A stretch of 37,181 nt of DNA from a virus: the IMG/VR virus record IMGVR_UViG_3300009502_000014, positions 1 to 37,181 of that record; one strand, written 5' to 3'. The translations under genes were made by a program, and so were the position numbers. Each line of letters starts with the position of its first letter. Positions within the stretch are counted from its first letter, which is position 1. The notes beneath the pieces are model-generated. The model was given only the letters and a program-made list of their open reading frames with translations, did no database searches and was not told the origin of the DNA. Of this stretch, positions 1,992-9,316 are shown piece after piece.

Positions 1992-3278
1992 TTAACCCAT
2001 CCATGAGCCTGGTGGCGAATATGTCGGTTTCTTAGGCCGCGCCTGTTTTGGTTCGTTAACCATCAACCCCAACATTCTAAATGCGTCGGCACCATGCGAG
2101 TATTGATCGTGCAACGGTGTTTTACTAAATTGCTTAGTATCAGGGTCAACTTCATAGCGATAATGTCTAAGGCATTGTAACCCTTCCGAACAATTATCAC
2201 GATCAAAATAGCAATTACGAAATATTGTCCTTGCGGCATCAATGCTGTCAACAATTGGCACTTTGCCTAAAATTCGAGTCTTAAACCCTGAATTTCTAAC
2301 TATTTCCTCGATGGATCGCCCATTTGCCGCCAAAGTTTTATTCTCAGCATCATGCGGCAACCATAATGTATCGTAGACATAACCAAAGGTTTGCAGTCGT
2401 GCGAGATAATACGCAATCGTCTGTTGGCTATCTTCAAGATATCTAATCAGCCTCGTTTCCATGCCTATAAACTGGACAAACCAAATCGCCGTTGCATCTG
2501 ACCAGCCTAGATCAAATACCGCATGAACTGGTTTAGCAGGATCATACGTCACCTTTGTGATTCTCCCATCCAACTCAGCCAATTGCATTTCTTTGGCAAA
2601 TACCGCACCGTCTACCGTCTGTCTACATATCCCTTCCCAAACGGTGTTATACGCCTCAATATCGCGTTGTTTTAATGACAATCGCTCAAGATTCAACGTT
2701 TCAGGAAACCACGGATTATCAGACCAATTGATCTTTTGAACCACCGAATTATCAGGAGGATGCAATACAAAACGTTGATAGGTTTCATCTGATTCAAGTT
2801 CAGGATTAAAGGTAATCCATATCTCCGAATCTTGTTTACGGATAGTAGGAATCAATACTGACCACGATGCACTAGAAGTTGTCTGTGCTTCTTCTACCCA
2901 ACAAATATCAACACCCTCGAAAGATTTGATATTGGCAACATTGTTTTTTAGTCCAGCAAAGCTAAACTCTGTGCCGTTTTGCCCTCGGATGCTATTTTGT
3001 GTTATTTCGTAAAATCCAAGCAATCCTAACGCCTGAATCTGGTCAGACAATAACTTATGCACCGAATCCTTGATGCTCGTTTGAAATTCCCTTGCACACA
3101 ATACCCTTAAAGTCTTTTGTGCGCCTTTTATCAGCAATGCCCTTGCGACACCCCAACTCTTTGCGCCACCTCGCCCACCAAACAATATTCTGTATCTGGA
3201 TTTCTCAGGTTCAAACAAGCATTGCAGCTTAACCGGAAACTGCGCTTTTGCTATTGCAGATTTAACTTGCTGATTCAT
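1992..3278 (-). CDS. terL: Terminase large subunit (PBSX / Terminase_3-like)
   Basis: 428 aa. The N-terminus has YRILFGGRGGAKSWGVARALL (P-loop-like) and LCAREFQTSIKDS. It overlaps the terS 3' end by 17 nt and is followed by the portal gene. Confidence 0.9.
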   Translation of the reverse strand: MNQQVKSAIAKAQFPVKLQCLFEPEKSRYRILFGGRGGAKSWGVARALLIKGAQKTLRVLCAREFQTSIKDSVHKLLSDQIQALGLLGFYEITQNSIRGQNGTEFSFAGLKNNVANIKSFEGVDICWVEEAQTTSSASWSVLIPTIRKQDSEIWITFNPELESDETYQRFVLHPPDNSVVQKINWSDNPWFPETLNLERLSLKQRDIEAYNTVWEGICRQTVDGAVFAKEMQLAELDGRITKVTYDPAKPVHAVFDLGWSDATAIWFVQFIGMETRLIRYLEDSQQTIAYYLARLQTFGYVYDTLWLPHDAENKTLAANGRSIEEIVRNSGFKTRILGKVPIVDSIDAARTIFRNCYFDRDNCSEGLQCLRHYRYEVDPDTKQFSKTPLHDQYSHGADAFRMLGLMVNEPKQARPKKPTYSPPGSWMG

Positions 3279-3672
3279 CGCGCTTAGGCGTTACAAACGA
3301 TACTTCTATACCAGCAAGCAAAGGTTGTCCGTCTGCGCCAGTAATCTCAGTCTTTGTTGATTCTCGATACTTTTTAGGAAATCTCGCCGCCATTGATCGT
3401 GACCAGATACTTGCATTAAGTTTGGCACAGTCCTTTTCCTCGATCATGTGCGTCTGAGCAATGGTTTCCCACCAATTCTGTTCAAATTCCTTAGCCATTT
3501 CCAAGGCACGCGAAAAATCTTCATGAACATCACGCCATTCATAGATCGTCCGTGTCCCAACATTCAATTCACAGGCTATTTGTTCAATGCTCTTACCTAA
3601 TTTTCCAAGCGTAATCACCCGCTCACAATAATCGGGATCATACTTGCTCGGTCTACCTACTGGTCGAGTCAT
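3262..3672 (-). CDS. terS: Terminase small subunit
   Basis: 136 aa. The N-terminal GRPSKYDPDYCERVITLG...SIEQIACELNVGTRTIYEWRDVHEDF is an HTH pattern typical of small terminases. It lies directly upstream of terL. Confidence 0.75.
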   Translation of the reverse strand: MTRPVGRPSKYDPDYCERVITLGKLGKSIEQIACELNVGTRTIYEWRDVHEDFSRALEMAKEFEQNWWETIAQTHMIEEKDCAKLNASIWSRSMAARFPKKYRESTKTEITGADGQPLLAGIEVSFVTPKRDESAS

Positions 3673-3839
3673 TATTCAGTTGCCATTGTTGCGTAAGCAT
3701 TGACGATTTCATCAACTTCTGCTTGTTGAATCTGCAATTCAATCTCTTTCACCAGGTCGGCAACAATACAATACGGTTCATCTTTCAATATTTCTAAGAT
3801 TAAATCCCATTGCTGTTCATCTAGTGTAATTTGCATCAT
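3672..3839 (-). CDS. Unlisted 55-aa acidic ORF (MMQITLDEQQWDLILEILKDEPYCIVADLVKEIELQIQQAEVDEIVNAYATMATE)
   Basis: Hand translated. Its ATG overlaps the upstream stop as ATGA (3836-3839). Its TAA shares one nt with the terS ATG (TAATG). Below the 60-aa cutoff of the track. Confidence 0.55.
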   Translation of the reverse strand: MMQITLDEQQWDLILEILKDEPYCIVADLVKEIELQIQQAEVDEIVNAYATMATE

Positions 3840-4036
3840 TTCACCTGTGGTTGTACTTCTGCTGGTGCGTCAGAGGGAATTTCTGCCTGTACTTGGGGCA
3901 CAGCTTGAGCGTGAATCTTAACTAGCAACTCATGCACCAATTTATGCGGCAATTCTTGCAATGCTTTCAAAATTGTTTCTACTTCTTCTTTCGTGTGCTG
4001 TAAGTTAATCATTTTTATCCTCAATAAAACAAACAT
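3836..4036 (-). CDS. Hypothetical protein (the likely start is the internal ATG at 4012)
   Basis: Track ORF within a chain of coupled ORFs. No recognisable motif. Confidence 0.5.
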   Translation of the reverse strand: MFVLLRIKMINLQHTKEEVETILKALQELPHKLVHELLVKIHAQAVPQVQAEIPSDAPAEVQPQVK

Positions 4037-4283
4037 CTTTCCAAGACATTATCAAATAACGCTCACCATTTTCTAAATATTCCTGATATTTCAGATACTC
4101 GTCATTGCCCATTGTGCCAAAGCGAATGTAATCATTAGGCTGTACATACTTACTTGCGTCTTTACCTACCGCTATCACCGAACCCATATTAAACTGTTCA
4201 GTCATCACCACTTCGATAATAGATGATTTAATGCGCTCAGTAGGTTTTACAACAATCTTATCTTTTAACGGTTTAAGATTCAT
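4005..4283 (-). CDS. GroES/Cpn10-like co-chaperonin
   Basis: 92 aa. MNLKPLKDKIVVKP, GSVIAVG and YLIMSWKDVCFIE align by eye with GroES MNIRPLHDRVIVKR, GEVLAVG and VLIMSESDILAIV. Confidence 0.7.
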   Translation of the reverse strand: MNLKPLKDKIVVKPTERIKSSIIEVVMTEQFNMGSVIAVGKDASKYVQPNDYIRFGTMGNDEYLKYQEYLENGERYLIMSWKDVCFIEDKND

Positions 4284-4486
4284 GCGACCGCCTTAACTGG
4301 TCTGCCGCGCTTAATCACAGGTACATCAACCGTTACATCTATCACAGGGTTAATTTTAATCGCCCATTCGCCGCACCATTCATTTGCATGATGCGTAACA
4401 TAAGCCGGAAAACGCCGACAACTTCCCAAGCCATCGCCCAAGAAGTATTTACAGGTGCAACACGATGTAAAATCACTTTCAGCCAT
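4280..4486 (-). CDS. Small Cys-rich protein (CCTCKYF...GSCRR...EWCGEW)
   Basis: 68-aa track ORF with a 4-nt overlap onto the downstream gene. The Cys pattern suggests metal binding. Function unknown. Confidence 0.55.
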   Translation of the reverse strand: MAESDFTSCCTCKYFLGDGLGSCRRFPAYVTHHANEWCGEWAIKINPVIDVTVDVPVIKRGRPVKAVA

Positions 4487-6301: not shown

Positions 6302-6642
6302 AATTCACATCATCATCGCTTCGATCAATTTATATAATGTTGCGAAATCTAGCACCGTTTAAGAATTGGTCAATGCCAGATGAAAAAAATATAATATTTG
6401 TAGCGTCAAACGATACAGATGCTATGGGAACTTATGTTTATGATGAAGAAAAAGAACGGCACGTTATGACCATATCAAAACAAAAAAATGGTCATCTTGA
6501 CACCGTTATTAAAACAATGGCGCATGAAATGATACATTTACGACGCTGGAAAACGTCAGGCTGGGACAAACACGATGATGTATTTAGAAAATATGCCACA
6601 CAAGTAGCAAACGAATTAGGTTTTGATCCCAACGAGTTGTAA
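6298..6642 (+). CDS. SprT-like / HExxH zinc-metallopeptidase-fold protein
   Basis: 114 aa with MAHEMIHL (HExxH). 4-nt overlap with the phosphoesterase gene. Confidence 0.55.
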   Translation: MKFTSSSLRSIYIMLRNLAPFKNWSMPDEKNIIFVASNDTDAMGTYVYDEEKERHVMTISKQKNGHLDTVIKTMAHEMIHLRRWKTSGWDKHDDVFRKYATQVANELGFDPNEL

Positions 6643-6888
6643 TCGTTCTAATAGCCCTTCTTCACTAATACCGTAATGTCGTTCAAACGCTTTGCGTCCC
6701 ATACCATGTACCCCCCCGTTACCTCGATGGTGTTCGGGGCAGAGTGGTATAACTGGTGCGTTTTTTCGTAAACCCCCGTGTCGGATATGGTGTATTTCCG
6801 CTGGGGTTTCACCATATTCCAAAAAGTTGCACAATATGCAACCAAACGATGCCAAACGGTCATAGTGTTTCCTTTCTAATTTGTTCAA
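6616..6888 (-). CDS. Ref-like (RecA-dependent) HNH nuclease
   Basis: 90 aa. LASFGCILC...AEIHHIRHGG...VIPLCPEHHRGNGGVHGMGRKAFERHYGI matches the pattern I associate with the P1 Ref family. Confidence 0.6.
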   Translation of the reverse strand: MNKLERKHYDRLASFGCILCNFLEYGETPAEIHHIRHGGLRKNAPVIPLCPEHHRGNGGVHGMGRKAFERHYGISEEGLLERLQLVGIKT

Positions 6889-7188: not shown

Positions 7189-7511
7189 CTTACGTTTTTA
7201 TCCATGATTCTGTTGTTTGCTTGCTCAGATCGCCACGCATCAAAACGCATTTGAGCCGTTAATAATTTCCATTTCAGCAATTCACAATTATAAGTTGCTT
7301 CGCCCAAAGCCTTGCATAATTGTTGATATTCTTCACTCGCATAGGCTTCACGTTCCTGAGCCGATACGGGTAAGTCTAAATGCTTTTTCATTTCAATTGC
7401 TTTTAGACTTGACTTAAAGGATTCCAGTTCTGCAAGGTCTTGTCGGGCCTTTGCGTATTTAGGCGCATTGTCCCAAATGAATTGTATTGCTTTGTCTGCG
7501 TTTTCATTCAT
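7185..7511 (-). CDS. Hypothetical coiled-coil protein
   Basis: 108-aa track ORF. Its ATG overlaps the methyltransferase frame-B stop as ATGA (7508-7511). Confidence 0.6.
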   Translation of the reverse strand: MNENADKAIQFIWDNAPKYAKARQDLAELESFKSSLKAIEMKKHLDLPVSAQEREAYASEEYQQLCKALGEATYNCELLKWKLLTAQMRFDAWRSEQANNRIMDKNVR

Positions 7512-7941
7512 TTAAGCAACTCCCAGGCTGTTGCTGCACACAATGGAACTTGTCCATTTCCAATGGCTTTAAGTCTGTCCACAGTTGCTGTTCCTGTTCC
7601 AACAACTCTTGGAACGATCTGCGTTTCATCCATGCAAGTTTGTTCCCACACTCCCGACTGCAAGTTTTCTCTCTCGGTCGTTTGTAAGTGAACTGAGTCC
7701 CGCAATACAGGCAAATCCTGTCCTTCGTATGATCTTTCCAGCGTTGATTCGCATGAATCAACCCGTGACACCTGATGCAAAGAATCGCAATGTTGCTGCT
7801 CGTGTTGTTGCTCGTGTTGTGATCTATGTGATGTCTGTGAAGGGTCTCTGTTCCACCACATCGTTCGCATTTGGACAGATTTTTGTAAAGGCGTTGCGCT
7901 TGTTTTCTGCCAGCGTTCAAACTCTTTTGGGTCAAATTCAT
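7504..7941 (-). CDS. HNH homing-type endonuclease (third frame, overprinted on the methyltransferase 3' end)
   Basis: 145 aa. CERCGG-x4-LHRHHIDHN-x9-NIAILCIRCHGLIH forms the HNH core, followed by a CLYCG...CSRECG zinc ribbon. GGAG lies 8 nt upstream of the ATG at 7941. Confidence 0.8.
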   Translation of the reverse strand: MNLTQKSLNAGRKQAQRLYKNLSKCERCGGTETLHRHHIDHNTSNNTSSNIAILCIRCHGLIHANQRWKDHTKDRICLYCGTQFTYKRPREKTCSRECGNKLAWMKRRSFQELLEQEQQLWTDLKPLEMDKFHCVQQQPGSCLNE

Positions 7942-8941
7942 TTAAATCACTCCATTTGATAGGCCAATTCATAAGCCATTCTACCCAATCTGGATTAAGT
8001 TTGCCACCAGCGTGAGTTGCAAGCGTAGGAGTATTCCTGTTCTTTTTGCTCGGACTGTTGCACTCCTTGGCGTTGTGCGCTGTTGGAGTTGGAAATTGAA
8101 CTTGACCCATAATCGTTTCCAAATTCGGGTTGCGTTTCTGGTTCCATGCTGATTCTGGAGTTATCGTTGCCGCCATTGCTGAACAACTGCGTGGTGTCGG
8201 CCATGTCTGTTTGTCCCTCACCGCTTGATTGATCGTGTATTGGGCTGGCTGACCAGATTTGCGTTTTGGCGTCCAGTTTGGCTGTGTTCCTCGCTGACCG
8301 CAATTCGCATCTGGGGTTGGCCATATCGGTATCTTGCCGTAAACAACTTGCTCCCGTAGATTCATTGACGCATAACTGCGACCTGGGCGAGATTTGTTGT
8401 TGTATTCCATAATCCGATCCAACTTCTTGGGGGCTAATCCCTCCAAAGTGTTGGGTGTTGGCCAATATCCAGATTCTATCTCTTTTATGGTTTGCACCAA
8501 CGTCGGCTGCAGATACAACGCCCCATCTTGCATCAAACCCCAGCGCGGCAAGGTCAGCGAGAACGACATCGAGTCCTCTAGTAACGAGCATTGGGCTGTT
8601 TTCCACGAACGCGTATTTGGGTCTAACCTCGCCAATGATGCGAGCCATGTGCTTCCACATTGAGGACCGGGTGCCTGTGATTCCTGCACCCTTTCCGGCT
8701 GCGCTGATGTCTTGGCATGGAAACCCGCCAGATACAACATCAACAATTCCTCGCCACGGGTTTCCGTCAAAGGTTTGACAGTCATCCCATACTGGGAAAG
8801 GCGGGAGAACTTTGTCATTTTGTCGGGCGCACAATACGCTAGCTGGATATGGCTCCCACTCGACTGCGCAGACTGTTCTCCATCCGAGCAAATGTCCCCC
8901 AAGTATCCCTCCACCAGCACCCGCGAAAAGAGCCAACTCAT
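7508..8941 (-). CDS. C5-methyltransferase C-terminal part (frame B, 477-aa ORF)
   Basis: Contains YWPTP, IWPTPDA, TWPTPRS and FPTPTA repeats, then LNPDWVEWLMNWPIKWSDL, WWNRDP and IVPRVV...VDRLKAIGNGQVP (motif X-like). Its ATG directly follows the upstream stop (TGAATG) and its stop overlaps the next ATG. The first 155 or so codons overlap the frame-A catalytic motifs. Confidence 0.7.
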   Translation of the reverse strand: MSWLFSRVLVEGYLGDICSDGEQSAQSSGSHIQLAYCAPDKMTKFSRLSQYGMTVKPLTETRGEELLMLYLAGFHAKTSAQPERVQESQAPGPQCGSTWLASLARLDPNTRSWKTAQCSLLEDSMSFSLTLPRWGLMQDGALYLQPTLVQTIKEIESGYWPTPNTLEGLAPKKLDRIMEYNNKSRPGRSYASMNLREQVVYGKIPIWPTPDANCGQRGTQPNWTPKRKSGQPAQYTINQAVRDKQTWPTPRSCSAMAATITPESAWNQKRNPNLETIMGQVQFPTPTAHNAKECNSPSKKNRNTPTLATHAGGKLNPDWVEWLMNWPIKWSDLNEFDPKEFERWQKTSATPLQKSVQMRTMWWNRDPSQTSHRSQHEQQHEQQHCDSLHQVSRVDSCESTLERSYEGQDLPVLRDSVHLQTTERENLQSGVWEQTCMDETQIVPRVVGTGTATVDRLKAIGNGQVPLCAATAWELLK

Positions 8942-8945
8942 TCAA
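7995..8945 (-). CDS. C5-methyltransferase N-terminal catalytic part (frame A, 316-aa ORF, TTG start). Only about 8460-8945 looks protein-like.
   Basis: Motif I LFAGAGGG (8907-8930), motif IV GFPCQDIS (8703-8726), motif VI ENS (8595-8603), motif VIII HKRDRIWILA (8460-8489). The remaining 150 or so codons are low-complexity. There is no in-frame ATG; the first codon is TTG, 5 nt after a GGGGAG. Confidence 0.7.
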   Translation of the reverse strand: MNELALFAGAGGGILGGHLLGWRTVCAVEWEPYPASVLCARQNDKVLPPFPVWDDCQTFDGNPWRGIVDVVSGGFPCQDISAAGKGAGITGTRSSMWKHMARIIGEVRPKYAFVENSPMLVTRGLDVVLADLAALGFDARWGVVSAADVGANHKRDRIWILANTQHFGGISPQEVGSDYGIQQQISPRSQLCVNESTGASCLRQDTDMANPRCELRSARNTAKLDAKTQIWSASPIHDQSSGEGQTDMADTTQLFSNGGNDNSRISMEPETQPEFGNDYGSSSISNSNSAQRQGVQQSEQKEQEYSYACNSRWWQT

Positions 8946-9316
8946 GCTAACTCCCCAATTCGTTTTGCAATCCTTGACCTAAACTGGCCAAAATCCTCGC
9001 CCGGAAGCGGGTTAATACCCACCTCCCTGCCTTTTTCCATTGTCAACTGTTCCGTAGAGTACCAAGGCAATTTAGGCTTCTTAGGTTGTGCCTCGCTCAT
9101 ATCCAATTCATCCTCAAATCTGGCTTGATTTAGCCATGTAGAGGCATGAGGAATAAACTCGCTTGATGTATCTTTCAATTTCCAATACCGAATGTGATTA
9201 GGTAGTGTTTCCATCGCTAATTCTTGATCTGCTAATGTCATTTTATCCCAAGCCTTCTGTGCCATGCGCCGAGAAACTTTGCGCGGAAATTGTTGCCAAA
9301 ATTCGTCAAAATTCAT
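8942..9316 (-). CDS. Conserved-looking early protein, function unknown (FWQQFPRKV...HASTWLNQARFEDE)
   Basis: 124-aa track ORF. The pattern vaguely recalls N-termini of some phage replication-organiser proteins, but I cannot support that call. Confidence 0.55.
   Translation of the reverse strand: MNFDEFWQQFPRKVSRRMAQKAWDKMTLADQELAMETLPNHIRYWKLKDTSSEFIPHASTWLNQARFEDELDMSEAQPKKPKLPWYSTEQLTMEKGREVGINPLPGEDFGQFRSRIAKRIGELA

What the first reader, a model, noticed from the sequence alone, without database searches (positions are those of the whole stretch)
7504..7941. HNH endonuclease gene overprinted in the third frame on the 3' end of the methyltransferase gene
Two ORFs of different phase overlap for 434 nt. 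Frame C (7941 to 7504) encodes a clear HNH nuclease: CERCGG, HRHHIDHN, LCIRCHGLIH and a CLYCG/CSRECG zinc ribbon, with GGAG 8 nt before its ATG. Frame B continues the methyltransferase through the same DNA. In frame B, WWNRDP (7841-7858) and IVPRVV...VDRLKAIGNGQVP (from 7618) are separated by about 74 low-complexity residues (SQTSHRSQHEQQHEQQH...). In phage C5-methyltransferases as I remember them, the WW..(E/D)P and (I/V)PRV strings are only a few residues apart. The apparent insertion (7619-7840) coincides with the HNH catalytic core and zinc ribbon (7645-7869). The picture is a free-standing homing-type HNH gene that invaded the methyltransferase gene, while the host frame stays open straight through it. 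The frame-B stop is still ATGA-coupled to the next gene. This differs from an intein, where the nuclease is in the same frame. It also differs from a classic intron ORF, where exon frames are interrupted. A 12-nt tandem repeat (7793-7816) lies in the doubly coding part.
Basis: partly seen in the sequence, partly recalled or inferred. Interest (0 to 1): 0.8.

Follow-up and report, generated by a model that had tools for sequence, protein, structure and literature searches.

The report
Hidden HNH gene inside phage methylase
A small HNH nuclease gene sits inside a phage DNA-methylase gene in a different reading frame, and the methylase frame is kept free of stop codons so that it reads straight through; this is a well-supported new example of a selfish-element arrangement first described in 2025.

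Summary
On the minus strand a 145-aa HNH ORF (7941-7504, frame C) overlaps the methylase ORF in frame B (8941-7508) for 434 nt.

The HNH is a real gene. It matches PHROG HNH families (E 7e-11). Among eight relatives its substitutions concentrate at HNH third codon positions.

The host frame is open by selection. Given the HNH protein, 5-12 frame-B stops are expected (P<=0.0007 per locus). None occurs in the window.

About 70 close relatives lack a 373-nt segment (7982-7610). HNH-plus alleles are scattered among HNH-less ones, and the cassette and methylase phylogenies disagree. No intron or intein signal was found. The invading-HNH reading is therefore supported.

Three details are wrong:
- The insert is 373 nt, not 222.
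- "WWNRDP" is a by-product of the HNH CxxCGG, not a methylase motif.
- The methylase uses two frames (motifs I-VIII in A; TRD, IX and X in B).

In HNH-less relatives two fully overlapping ORFs encode the enzyme, as in M.EcoHK31I. The 3n+1 insert moves motif X into the other frame.

Out-of-frame HNH insertions read through by phage methylases were published in 2025 (the ShiLan domain). This is a new variant of a known kind.

The parts
7504..7941 (-). HNH endonuclease ORF (frame C), 145 aa. The conserved 116-codon core is 7941-7594. Motifs: CERCGG from 7869, HRHH 7839-7828, CIRCHG 7779-7762, zinc ribbon CLYCG 7713-7699 and CSRECG. The last 29 codons (7593-7507) are a read-on found only here and in P0121.
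   Evidence: PHROG HNH, E 7e-11; third-position variation in this frame; AF2 beta-beta-alpha plus ribbon, pLDDT 72.5
7950..7953 (-). GGAG Shine-Dalgarno-like sequence 8 nt upstream of the HNH ATG. TGGAGT and the ATG are conserved in the WIN-type HNH-plus loci. The same bases also encode W-S of the methylase in frame B.
7610..7982 (-). 373-nt segment (3n+1) present in HNH-plus alleles and absent from about 70 HNH-less relatives. It holds a recoded end of motif IX, the HNH core and a new pre-X segment. The boundaries are ambiguous by a few nt, because the first bases of the insert (AGAATGGCT) resemble the 3' flank (AGAGTGGCT in HNH-less alleles).
7508..8941 (-). Frame-B ORF (beta'), 477 aa. Its first ~155 aa are the +1 reading of the catalytic-domain DNA. 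It then carries the TRD with four (W/F)PTP repeats (from 8464), motif IX, a 124-codon read-through of the insert, pre-X and motif X.
7995..8945 (-). Frame-A ORF (alpha'), TTG start, 316 aa. C5-methyltransferase motifs I (8927), IV (8729), VI (8609) and VIII (8483-8466). After about 8460 it is the out-of-frame reading of the TRD DNA, and it stops at 7995 without reaching motif X.
   Evidence: (PF00145, E 9e-30, aa 4-168)
7940..7996 (-). Motif IX and following motif in frame B: LNPDWVEWLMNWPIKWSDL.
   Evidence: aligned to in-frame homologues P0091 and P0010
7544..7618 (-). Pre-X and motif X in frame B: IVPRVVGTGTATVDRLKAIGNGQVP. In HNH-less relatives the homologous DNA is read in the other frame (frame 0, with motifs I-VIII).
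7507..7581 (-). Frame-C reading WTDLKPLEMDKFHCVQQQPGSCLNE. This is a relic of the C-terminal tail of the beta ORF of HNH-less alleles. Here it is fused to the HNH ORF because the usual HNH stop is missing.
7793..7816 (-). Two tandem 12-nt copies (11/12 identical) encoding NTSN/NTSS in the variable HNH loop. Specific to this window and P0121; there is no length change relative to relatives.
8939..8956 (-). Shared start region. GGGGAG (8956-8951), then TTG (8945, frame A) after 5 nt and ATG (8941, frame B) after 9 nt. The upstream gene's TGA is at 8944-8942. In relatives the pattern is NTGAATGAG, with the frame +1 ATG present in 84/88.

Best explanation
A mobile HNH endonuclease cassette of homing-endonuclease type sits between motif IX and motif X of a phage C5-cytosine methyltransferase gene. 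It is encoded in the +1 phase of the host frame.

**How it is probably expressed.** The HNH is probably translated from its own GGAG-ATG start inside the methylase mRNA (inferred). The methylase ribosomes read through the same DNA in frame B. This produces a roughly 124-residue passenger linker whose only detectable constraint is the absence of stop codons. The element therefore needs neither RNA nor protein splicing to spare its host gene.

**Architecture of the host gene.** The host gene is itself unusual. In HNH-less relatives two fully overlapping ORFs start 4 nt apart behind one Shine-Dalgarno sequence.
- Frame 0 carries motifs I-VIII and X (the large domain).
- Frame +1 carries the TRD and motif IX (the small domain).

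This resembles M.EcoHK31I. Because the cassette is 3n+1 nt long, it moves motif X into the TRD/IX frame. That turns the enzyme into an alpha (I-VIII) plus beta (TRD-IX-linker-X) pair.

**Inferred spread.** The HNH cuts the conserved, doubly coding IX/pre-X segment of HNH-less alleles. The cassette is then copied in by recombinational repair during co-infection.

**Shown versus inferred.** Shown: the anatomy, the selection on each frame, the stop avoidance, the presence/absence polymorphism and the phylogenetic discordance. Inferred: translation of both products, nuclease activity and target, and retained methylase activity.
For: **The HNH is a real gene.** PHROG HNH families match at E 7e-11. 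There is a free-standing homologue, P0127. Catalytic and zinc ligands are invariant. Variation concentrates at HNH third positions, 0.406 against 0.176 and 0.152.

**The host frame is open by selection.** Expected frame-B stops are 5.5-12, with P(0) <= 0.0007 in each of 8 loci diverged by 7-26%. The MTase frame is also open through four other, divergent HNH variants: L029/L032, L109, L110 and L114.

**The cassette is an insertion.** Motif X lies at IX+38 nt in 76 HNH-less loci and at IX+411 nt in 10 loci carrying the window-type HNH. There are no indels among the 8 aligned unique HNH-plus sequences. The junctions are aligned.

**Mobility.** For 9 of 12 HNH-plus entries, including the window (89.7% to L001/L002), the nearest neighbour in catalytic-domain DNA, duplicates aside, is HNH-less (84-96% identity); the exceptions are L029, L032 and L086. 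Cassette and N-terminal identities disagree: L084-L085 are 93% against 81%, and WIN-L084 are 77% against 85%.

**Two-frame host gene.** The selected frame switches 0 -> +1 -> 0. Frame 0 has no stop across the TRD in 68/72 HNH-less loci but does in 7/10 HNH-plus loci (Fisher p 9e-6). L082 and L085 have 6 and 8 stops, close to the permutation expectation of 7.8 and 7.7. Frame +1 is open from the ATG at -14 in 81/82 loci.

**No splicing signal.** Rfam finds nothing. Frame B has no Pfam domain. Only about 25 nt of the insert lie outside the HNH ORF.

**Precedents.** PMC11855218 and M.EcoHK31I in PMC2836561.
Against: - There are no expression or activity data.
- Pfam HNH is below its gathering score, and Foldseek against the PDB gave no hit with E < 0.1.
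- AF2 of the 477-aa frame-B protein was uninformative, with pLDDT 30. There is thus no structural support that the linker is tolerated.
- One relative (L081) has a stop in the methylase frame inside the overlap while its HNH is intact. The methylase is therefore dispensable at least sometimes.
- Cassettes in different phages are only 74-93% identical, so spread is not demonstrably recent.
- These phages also shuffle TRD modules. Patchiness could therefore come from ordinary recombination rather than HNH-driven homing.
- The L029/L032 HNH variant has no canonical start codon.
Confidence: 0.7

Rival explanations
1. The HNH is a resident, useful phage nuclease (for example for packaging, host DNA degradation or competition between phages) that has been tucked into the methylase gene. 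It would be a stable overlapping gene rather than an actively homing selfish element.
For: HNH proteins have many roles in phages. The HNH is under purifying selection in lineages whose cassettes differ by up to 26%, which suggests long residence. Five divergent HNH variants occupy the same site and phase, consistent with old vertical descent plus recombination.
Against: Only about 4% of the closest relatives carry it: 3 of 80 loci. Phages with 84-96% identical catalytic domains lack it, so it is not needed. Its distribution is discordant with the host gene. The window has another small HNH-like gene at 6616-6888.
Confidence: 0.15
2. A single full-length methylase is made by programmed ribosomal frameshifting, not two polypeptides. 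This would be +1 near 8465 in this window. In HNH-less relatives it would be +1 and then -1 at the conserved CTTAAAG in motif X.
For: The selected frame switches cleanly 0 -> +1 -> 0. At CTT AAA G / C TTA AAG both frames encode Leu-Lys, and the sequence is nearly invariant. Single-chain in-frame homologues exist: P0010, P0091 and P0017.
Against: Frameshifting does not require the frames to stay open away from the shift sites. Yet frame +1 is open from its ATG in 81/82 loci. Frame 0 is open across the TRD in 68/72 HNH-less loci, and this openness is lost when motif X is re-phased. No canonical slippery heptamer lies at the VIII/TRD junction. M.EcoHK31I shows that the two-chain solution works.
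Confidence: 0.12
3. The insertion killed the methylase, and the open frame B across the HNH is a leftover or a composition effect.
For: Phage orphan methylases are dispensable. L081 carries a stop in frame B. Frame A is already truncated.
Against: Seven of 8 unique HNH-plus sequences, diverged mainly at positions able to create stops, have no stop where 5-12 are expected. Motifs IX and X flanking the insert still vary mainly at frame-B third positions. Four other HNH variants show the same open host frame, and the same holds in a 33.6% GC Staphylococcus phage.
Confidence: 0.06
4. The segment is a group I or group II intron, or an intein, that is removed after transcription or translation.
For: Homing endonuclease genes are usually carried by such elements. 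The start of the insert resembles the 3' flank.
Against: There is no Rfam match at E <= 1 in 7300-9100. 348 of 373 nt are HNH coding sequence, which leaves no room for a ribozyme. There is no Hint or intein domain in frame B. The nuclease is out of frame with the host. There would be no reason for stop avoidance in the host frame if the segment were spliced out.
Confidence: 0.03

Closest known systems
[quoted passage not shown]
   Same: - An insertion in a phage DNA methylase that adds no stop codon to the host frame.
- The HNH, with zinc fingers, is encoded in another frame.
- No intron or intein features.
- Disjunct distribution among related methylases and discordant phylogeny.
- The start of the insert resembles the sequence just downstream of the site.
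- The in-frame product looks disordered.
   Different: - Here the element is much smaller: 373 nt with a 116-145 aa HNH, against 606 nt with a 195 aa HNH.
- It is 3n+1, not 3n.
- It has an ATG with a GGAG 8 nt upstream, instead of a GTG with no RBS.
- It lies in a 43% GC genome, where an open alternative frame is statistically demonstrable.
- It sits in a two-frame methylase, where it re-phases motif X.
- Sequence homology to the ShiLan HNH and identity of the insertion site were not tested. tblastn of the window HNH against the phage collection found nothing.
M.EcoHK31I (alpha/beta C5-methyltransferase; beta encoded wholly within alpha in another frame; PMC2836561 citing Lee et al. 1995)
   Same: HNH-less relatives of this gene have two overlapping ORFs in different frames. 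[quoted passage not shown]
   Different: - Here the two ORFs overlap over their whole length and start 4 nt apart.
- The TRD-like (W)PTP repeats are in the motif IX frame, whereas EcoHK31I alpha holds the TRD.
- Heterodimer formation is untested.
- In the window itself, motif X has moved to the beta frame.
Two-gene C5-methylases with alpha = I-VIII and beta = TRD-IX-X. Examples: M.AquI (from memory: Karreman and de Waard 1990) and Mycobacterium phage Noelle gp77/gp76 (MN813697)
   Same: The window's HNH-plus allele has this partition: frame A carries I-VIII, and frame B carries TRD-IX-X, with overlapping ORFs in different frames.
   Different: Noelle's ORFs overlap by only about 180 nt and have no HNH-bearing linker between IX and X. 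In the window, frame B is open from the very start of the gene.
Free-standing homing endonuclease genes, intron-encoded HNH genes (for example I-HmuI) and inteins
   Same: A selfish nuclease gene with a patchy distribution, inserted at a conserved site of a host gene, with the host gene's function apparently preserved.
   Different: Host function is preserved neither by RNA splicing, nor by protein splicing, nor by splitting the gene into pieces. It is preserved by translation through the nuclease gene in another frame.
Staphylococcus phage CUB-EPI_14 gp45 'DNA-cytosine methyltransferase' (ON325435.2)
   Same: An HNH ORF of about 160 aa lies in the +1 frame of an annotated single-chain C5-methylase whose frame stays open, in a 33.6% GC genome.
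   Different: The site differs (upstream of motif IX), the HNH is larger with an N-terminal zinc ribbon, and the methylase is a single chain. It is not annotated as such in the record.

Membership tests
Out-of-frame HNH insertion elements in phage DNA methylases (ShiLan-domain type) | Insertion in a methylase gene that is absent from close homologues | tested here: met
   373 nt are present in 10 loci carrying the window-type HNH and absent in 76 HNH-less loci at the same site.
Out-of-frame HNH insertion elements in phage DNA methylases (ShiLan-domain type) | No stop codon in the host frame across the insertion | tested here: met
   There are 0 stops in the window and in 7/8 unique relatives, where 5.5-12 are expected; P <= 0.0007 per locus.
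Out-of-frame HNH insertion elements in phage DNA methylases (ShiLan-domain type) | An alternative frame of the insertion encodes an HNH endonuclease | tested here: met
   PHROG HNH families at E 7e-11; invariant CxxC / HH / N / CxxCH residues.
Out-of-frame HNH insertion elements in phage DNA methylases (ShiLan-domain type) | No intron or intein signatures | tested here: met
   No Rfam hit, no Pfam domain in frame B, and only about 25 nt outside the HNH ORF.
Out-of-frame HNH insertion elements in phage DNA methylases (ShiLan-domain type) | Disjunct distribution and discordance with the host methylase phylogeny | tested here: met
Out-of-frame HNH insertion elements in phage DNA methylases (ShiLan-domain type) | Sequence homology to the ShiLan HNH and the same insertion site | not tested
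   The ShiLan sequence was not retrieved. tblastn of the window HNH against 50,697 phage records gave no match, so any relationship is distant.
HNH / His-Me finger endonucleases | Beta-beta-alpha-metal core with catalytic His, Asn/His and zinc-binding CxxC pairs | tested here: inconclusive
   The sequence motifs and PHROG profiles are met, and the AF2 model shows strand-strand-helix at 34-70. However, Pfam PF01844 scores 17.2 bits, below its 21.4-bit cut-off, and Foldseek gave no hit with E < 0.1.
Homing endonucleases | Site-specific cleavage of the empty allele and biased inheritance | not testable with these tools
   Only indirect evidence is available: the patchy distribution, and the fact that the empty site is a highly conserved, doubly coding segment that is recoded in HNH-plus alleles.
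C5-cytosine DNA methyltransferases (PF00145) | Motifs I, IV (PCQ), VI (ENV-like) and VIII in the catalytic domain | tested here: met
   Frame A aa 4-168, E 9.3e-30; motif positions.
C5-cytosine DNA methyltransferases (PF00145) | Motifs IX and X present and in one polypeptide with I-VIII | tested here: not met
   Motifs IX and X are present but in frame B, whereas I-VIII are in frame A. A single chain would need a +1 frameshift.
Heterodimeric overlapping-ORF C5-methylases (M.EcoHK31I / M.AquI types) | Motifs partitioned between two ORFs in different frames that overlap | tested here: met
   The window has the I-VIII | TRD-IX-X partition, and HNH-less relatives have the I-VIII+X | TRD-IX partition.
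Heterodimeric overlapping-ORF C5-methylases (M.EcoHK31I / M.AquI types) | Two polypeptides are made, and both are required for activity | not testable with these tools
   This is inferred only from the frame-specific stop avoidance, which disappears when motif X is re-phased.
Inteins / group I introns | Hint splicing domain in frame with the host, or a ribozyme core flanking the ORF | tested here: not met
   The nuclease is out of frame, and 348 of 373 nt are HNH coding sequence.

The most novel reading that the evidence does not exclude
The HNH cassette is an actively homing element that spares its host gene by a third route, neither RNA nor protein splicing. The methylase is translated through it in another frame. 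Because the cassette is 3n+1 nt long, it also re-partitions the enzyme: an EcoHK31I-like pair (I-VIII+X / TRD+IX, two ORFs overlapping end to end) becomes an AquI-like pair (I-VIII / TRD+IX+X) that is still active. Its target would be the short stretch where motif IX and pre-X are encoded by the same DNA in two frames. That stretch is exceptionally constrained and therefore a safe homing site.
Probability: 0.35. Interest if true: 0.75.

Novelty: new variant of a known kind. Interest (0 to 1): 0.6.

Why it matters
**A clean test case for a recently described arrangement.** Out-of-frame homing endonuclease genes that the host gene reads through were recognised only in 2025. They were found in high-GC mycobacteriophages, where open alternative frames are common and no ribosome-binding site could be found. 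This window improves on that in three ways.
- Its genome is 43% GC, so selection for the open host frame can be demonstrated statistically.
- The HNH has a plain GGAG-ATG start.
- Dozens of natural HNH-plus and HNH-less allele pairs define the empty site.

Cleavage, homing and read-through can therefore be tested directly.

**Practical relevance for annotation.** Phage C5-methylases can be encoded by two ORFs that overlap over their whole length, and a selfish insertion can move a catalytic motif from one subunit frame to the other. Gene callers currently report only one of the ORFs, or a nonsense hybrid. They miss the nuclease altogether.

Tried and rejected
- **Near-identical DNA in isolate phages:** none found. 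tblastn of the HNH against the phage collection also found nothing.
- **Pfam on frame B:** no family.
- **Profile search of the HNH alignment against PDB sequences:** only a marginal IscB HNH hit, E 0.016.
- **AF2 and Foldseek of the HNH:** the fold is plausible, but no match has E < 0.1.
- **AF2 of the 477-aa frame-B protein:** pLDDT 30 throughout. It says nothing about whether the linker or the N-terminal out-of-frame part is disordered.
- **Rfam scan for introns:** nothing.
- **ShiLan genome:** I tried to fetch it to compare the insertion site and the HNH. The accession I guessed was another phage, and ShiLan was not among the 60 best tblastn rows.
- **Sequencing frameshift artefacts, rejected:** the same frame structure recurs in about 80 independent assemblies and in a cultured Acinetobacter phage.
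- **De novo overprinting of the HNH on an older methylase linker, rejected:** the HNH has free-standing homologues and carries the third-position signal, so the methylase reading is the secondary one.
- **The 12-nt repeat as a meaningful feature, rejected:** it is window-specific and there is no length change.
Full report
**1. Observation**

The window is a roughly 37-kb phage genome with terminase, major head protein and connector genes, at 43% GC.

On the minus strand, ORF 7941..7504 (frame C, 145 aa) and ORF 8941..7508 (frame B, 477 aa) overlap for 434 nt.
- GGAG lies 8 nt before the frame-C ATG.
- The frame-B TGA overlaps the ATG of the next gene.
- A 2 x 12-nt repeat lies at 7816-7793.

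**2. The HNH is a real gene**

- Pfam HNH is only sub-threshold (E 0.006). PHROG HNH endonuclease families match at E 6.8e-11 and 1.4e-7, the latter including the zinc ribbon.
- Nine database homologues exist. Five are 116 aa long and 70-82% identical. One, P0127, is a free-standing phage HNH sharing GRxxAQRLYK..CERCGG..RHHID.N..NN.
- The zinc and catalytic residues are invariant.
- AF2 gives a strand-strand-helix core plus ribbon at pLDDT 72.5. Foldseek found nothing significant.
- The codon-position test is the decisive evidence. Among 8 unique HNH-plus sequences with no indels, differences per site at frame-B codon positions 1/2/3 are 0.406/0.176/0.152 inside the HNH core. Frame-B position 1 is HNH position 3. 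In the flanking motif IX and X regions the maximum is instead at frame-B position 3. Selection therefore acts on the HNH protein inside the overlap and on the methylase outside it.

**3. The host frame is open by selection**

I held each HNH protein fixed and redrew synonymous codons.
- With genome codon usage, frame B acquires 9-12 stops on average.
- When the gene's own codons are permuted, it acquires 5.5-8.
- P(no stop) is <= 0.0007 in every one of 8 loci.
- The window and six others have none. L081 has one.

The HNH has 38-45 codons starting AA, AG or GA. None of them is preceded by a T in the window.

**4. It is an insertion relative to most relatives**

A protein search with the reconstructed methylase returned thousands of relatives. 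From IMG/VR I fetched 108 loci.
- In 76 loci without HNH, motif X starts 38 nt after motif IX.
- In 10 loci carrying the window-type HNH it starts 411 nt after.
- The difference is 373 nt, which maps to 7982-7610 in the window.

About 4% of the closest relatives carry an insert (3 of 80).

For most HNH-plus loci, including the window (89.7% to L001/L002), the nearest neighbour in catalytic-domain DNA is HNH-less, at 84-96% identity; L029, L032 and L086 are the exceptions. Cassette identity is discordant with catalytic-domain identity: L084-L085 are 93% against 81%, and WIN-L084 are 77% against 85%. This patchiness is what a mobile element, or recombination of a cassette, produces.

No Rfam family matches. 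Frame B has no Pfam domain. 348 of the 373 nt are HNH coding sequence. An intron or intein is therefore very unlikely.

**5.

Pfam places motifs I-VIII in frame A (8945-7995; E 9e-30). The (W)PTP-repeat TRD, motif IX and motif X are in frame B.

In HNH-less relatives the pattern is different.
- Motifs I-VIII are in frame 0.
- The TRD and motif IX are in frame +1.
- Motif X is back in frame 0.
- The frame under purifying selection switches accordingly.

Both frames are nevertheless open over the entire gene.
- Frame +1 is open from an ATG 4 nt after the frame-0 start in 81/82 unique loci.
- Frame 0 is open across the TRD in 68/72 HNH-less loci.
- Permutation expects 2.4-7 stops across the TRD.

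The DNA encoding LNPTWVEWLMGWPLGWTDLKP (motif IX, frame +1) also encodes WWDVEPNVGRVANGVAARVDRLKA (pre-X, frame 0). This resembles the architecture described for M.EcoHK31I, whose beta chain is encoded within alpha in another frame; there the TRD is in alpha and beta is nested within it.

A cultured Acinetobacter phage (OQ471969) has the same arrangement, with only one ORF annotated.

**6. Effect of the insert**

Because 373 = 3n+1, the cassette shifts motif X from frame 0 to the TRD/IX frame. It shifts the old beta tail (WTDLKPLEMDKF...) into the HNH frame.

The doubly coding segment is "unfolded" into two singly coding copies. A left copy is read only as motif IX, and a right copy only as pre-X. 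Both are in frame B.

In HNH-plus alleles, frame 0 no longer needs to reach motif X, and it decays.
- 7 of 10 have stops in the TRD region, against 4 of 72 HNH-less alleles (Fisher p 9e-6).
- L082 and L085 have 6 and 8 stops, close to the random expectation of 7.8 and 7.7.
- The window still shows avoidance (1 stop, P 0.0015), which suggests a recent acquisition.

This contrast is my main argument that the two ORFs are translated separately and are not joined by frameshifting.

The window's 145-aa HNH is longer than the usual 116 aa only because the usual stop is missing.

**7. Generality**

Every linker between motif IX and pre-X that I opened contains an intact HNH ORF in the +1 phase of the methylase frame, with that frame open. 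There are five divergent types: WIN type, L029/L032, L109 (P0010), L110 (P0023) and L114 (P0008).

A 33.6% GC Staphylococcus phage methylase hides a similar HNH at another site.

**8. Comparison with what is known**

Arsenault, Gosselin and Gogarten (2025, PMC11855218) described the ShiLan domain. It is an insertion in a mycobacteriophage methylase with no stop in the host frame, an HNH in the third frame, no intron or intein features and a disjunct distribution. They also described a second case (Pacc40) and hits elsewhere. The kind is therefore known.

This element differs in the following respects.
- It is smaller.
- It is 3n+1 nt long.
- It has a canonical SD and ATG.
- It lies in a moderate-GC genome.
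- It sits in an overlapping two-ORF methylase, whose subunit composition it changes.

I rate it a new variant of a known kind.

**9. Limits**

Nothing here shows translation, nuclease activity, the cleavage site or methylase activity. AF2 of the frame-B protein was uninformative. Homology and site identity with ShiLan were not tested.

Noticed in passing
window 7995-8945 and 7508-8941 (-); loci L001-L108: The methylase gene family consists of two ORFs that overlap over their whole length in frames 0 and +1. Motifs I-VIII and X are in one ORF, and the TRD and motif IX are in the other. Both ORFs are kept free of stops in about 70 independent phage contigs. Gene callers report one ORF or a hybrid of the two.
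   Followed up: yes
window 8939-8956 (-): One GGGGAG precedes two start codons 4 nt apart in different frames: TTG at 8945 and ATG at 8941. In relatives the pattern is NTGAATGAG, with ATG/GTG/TTG for frame 0 and a conserved ATG for frame +1 (84/88).
   Followed up: partly
L112 (Acinetobacter phage vB_AbaM_ABMM1, OQ471969.1) 1129-2043: A cultured phage has the same two-frame methylase. Only the frame-0 ORF is annotated as DNA methyltransferase. The frame +1 ORF (MSWLFSQ...WTDLRPLEMDKFQSW) is not annotated.
   Followed up: partly
L116 (Staphylococcus phage CUB-EPI_14, ON325435.2) 399-2204: The annotated single-chain DNA-cytosine methyltransferase gp45 hides an HNH ORF of about 160 aa in its +1 frame, just upstream of motif IX. 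The genome is 33.6% GC, and the host frame is open throughout.
   Followed up: partly
L113 (Mycobacterium phage DotProduct, JN859129.1) 2315-4306: A LAGLIDADG motif (LAYVAGLIDGEGC) and about 150 following residues lie in the +1 frame of the annotated methylase gp64, between motifs VI and VIII. This looks like a second type of nuclease read through out of frame. The genome is high-GC, so the open frame is less telling.
   Followed up: no
L081, about 120 nt after motif IX: One HNH-plus relative has a stop codon in the methylase frame inside the overlap (MRTM*WDRDP), while its HNH ORF is intact.
   Followed up: no
L029 and L032, between motif IX and X: A divergent HNH variant (391-nt insert) has no ATG, GTG or TTG between the preceding stop and its catalytic motif (TGA GTC ATA AGC ...). 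How it would be translated is unclear.
   Followed up: no
L001-L108, conserved CTTAAAG in motif X: At GAC AGA CTT AAA GCC / G ACA GAC TTA AAG CC both frames encode Leu-Lys, and the sequence is almost invariant. It might allow -1 slippage from the motif IX frame into the motif X frame.
   Followed up: no
window 6616-6888 (-): A second small protein with HNH-like motifs (HHIRHGG ... CPEHH) matches phrog_1588, a family of unknown function.
   Followed up: no
L111 (Mycobacterium phage Noelle, MN813697.1) 1411-2386; many other actinophage and Paenibacillus phage records: Many isolate phages annotate two overlapping 'DNA methylase' genes in different frames. In Noelle, one carries I-VIII and the other TRD-IX-X, overlapping by about 180 nt.
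   Followed up: partly
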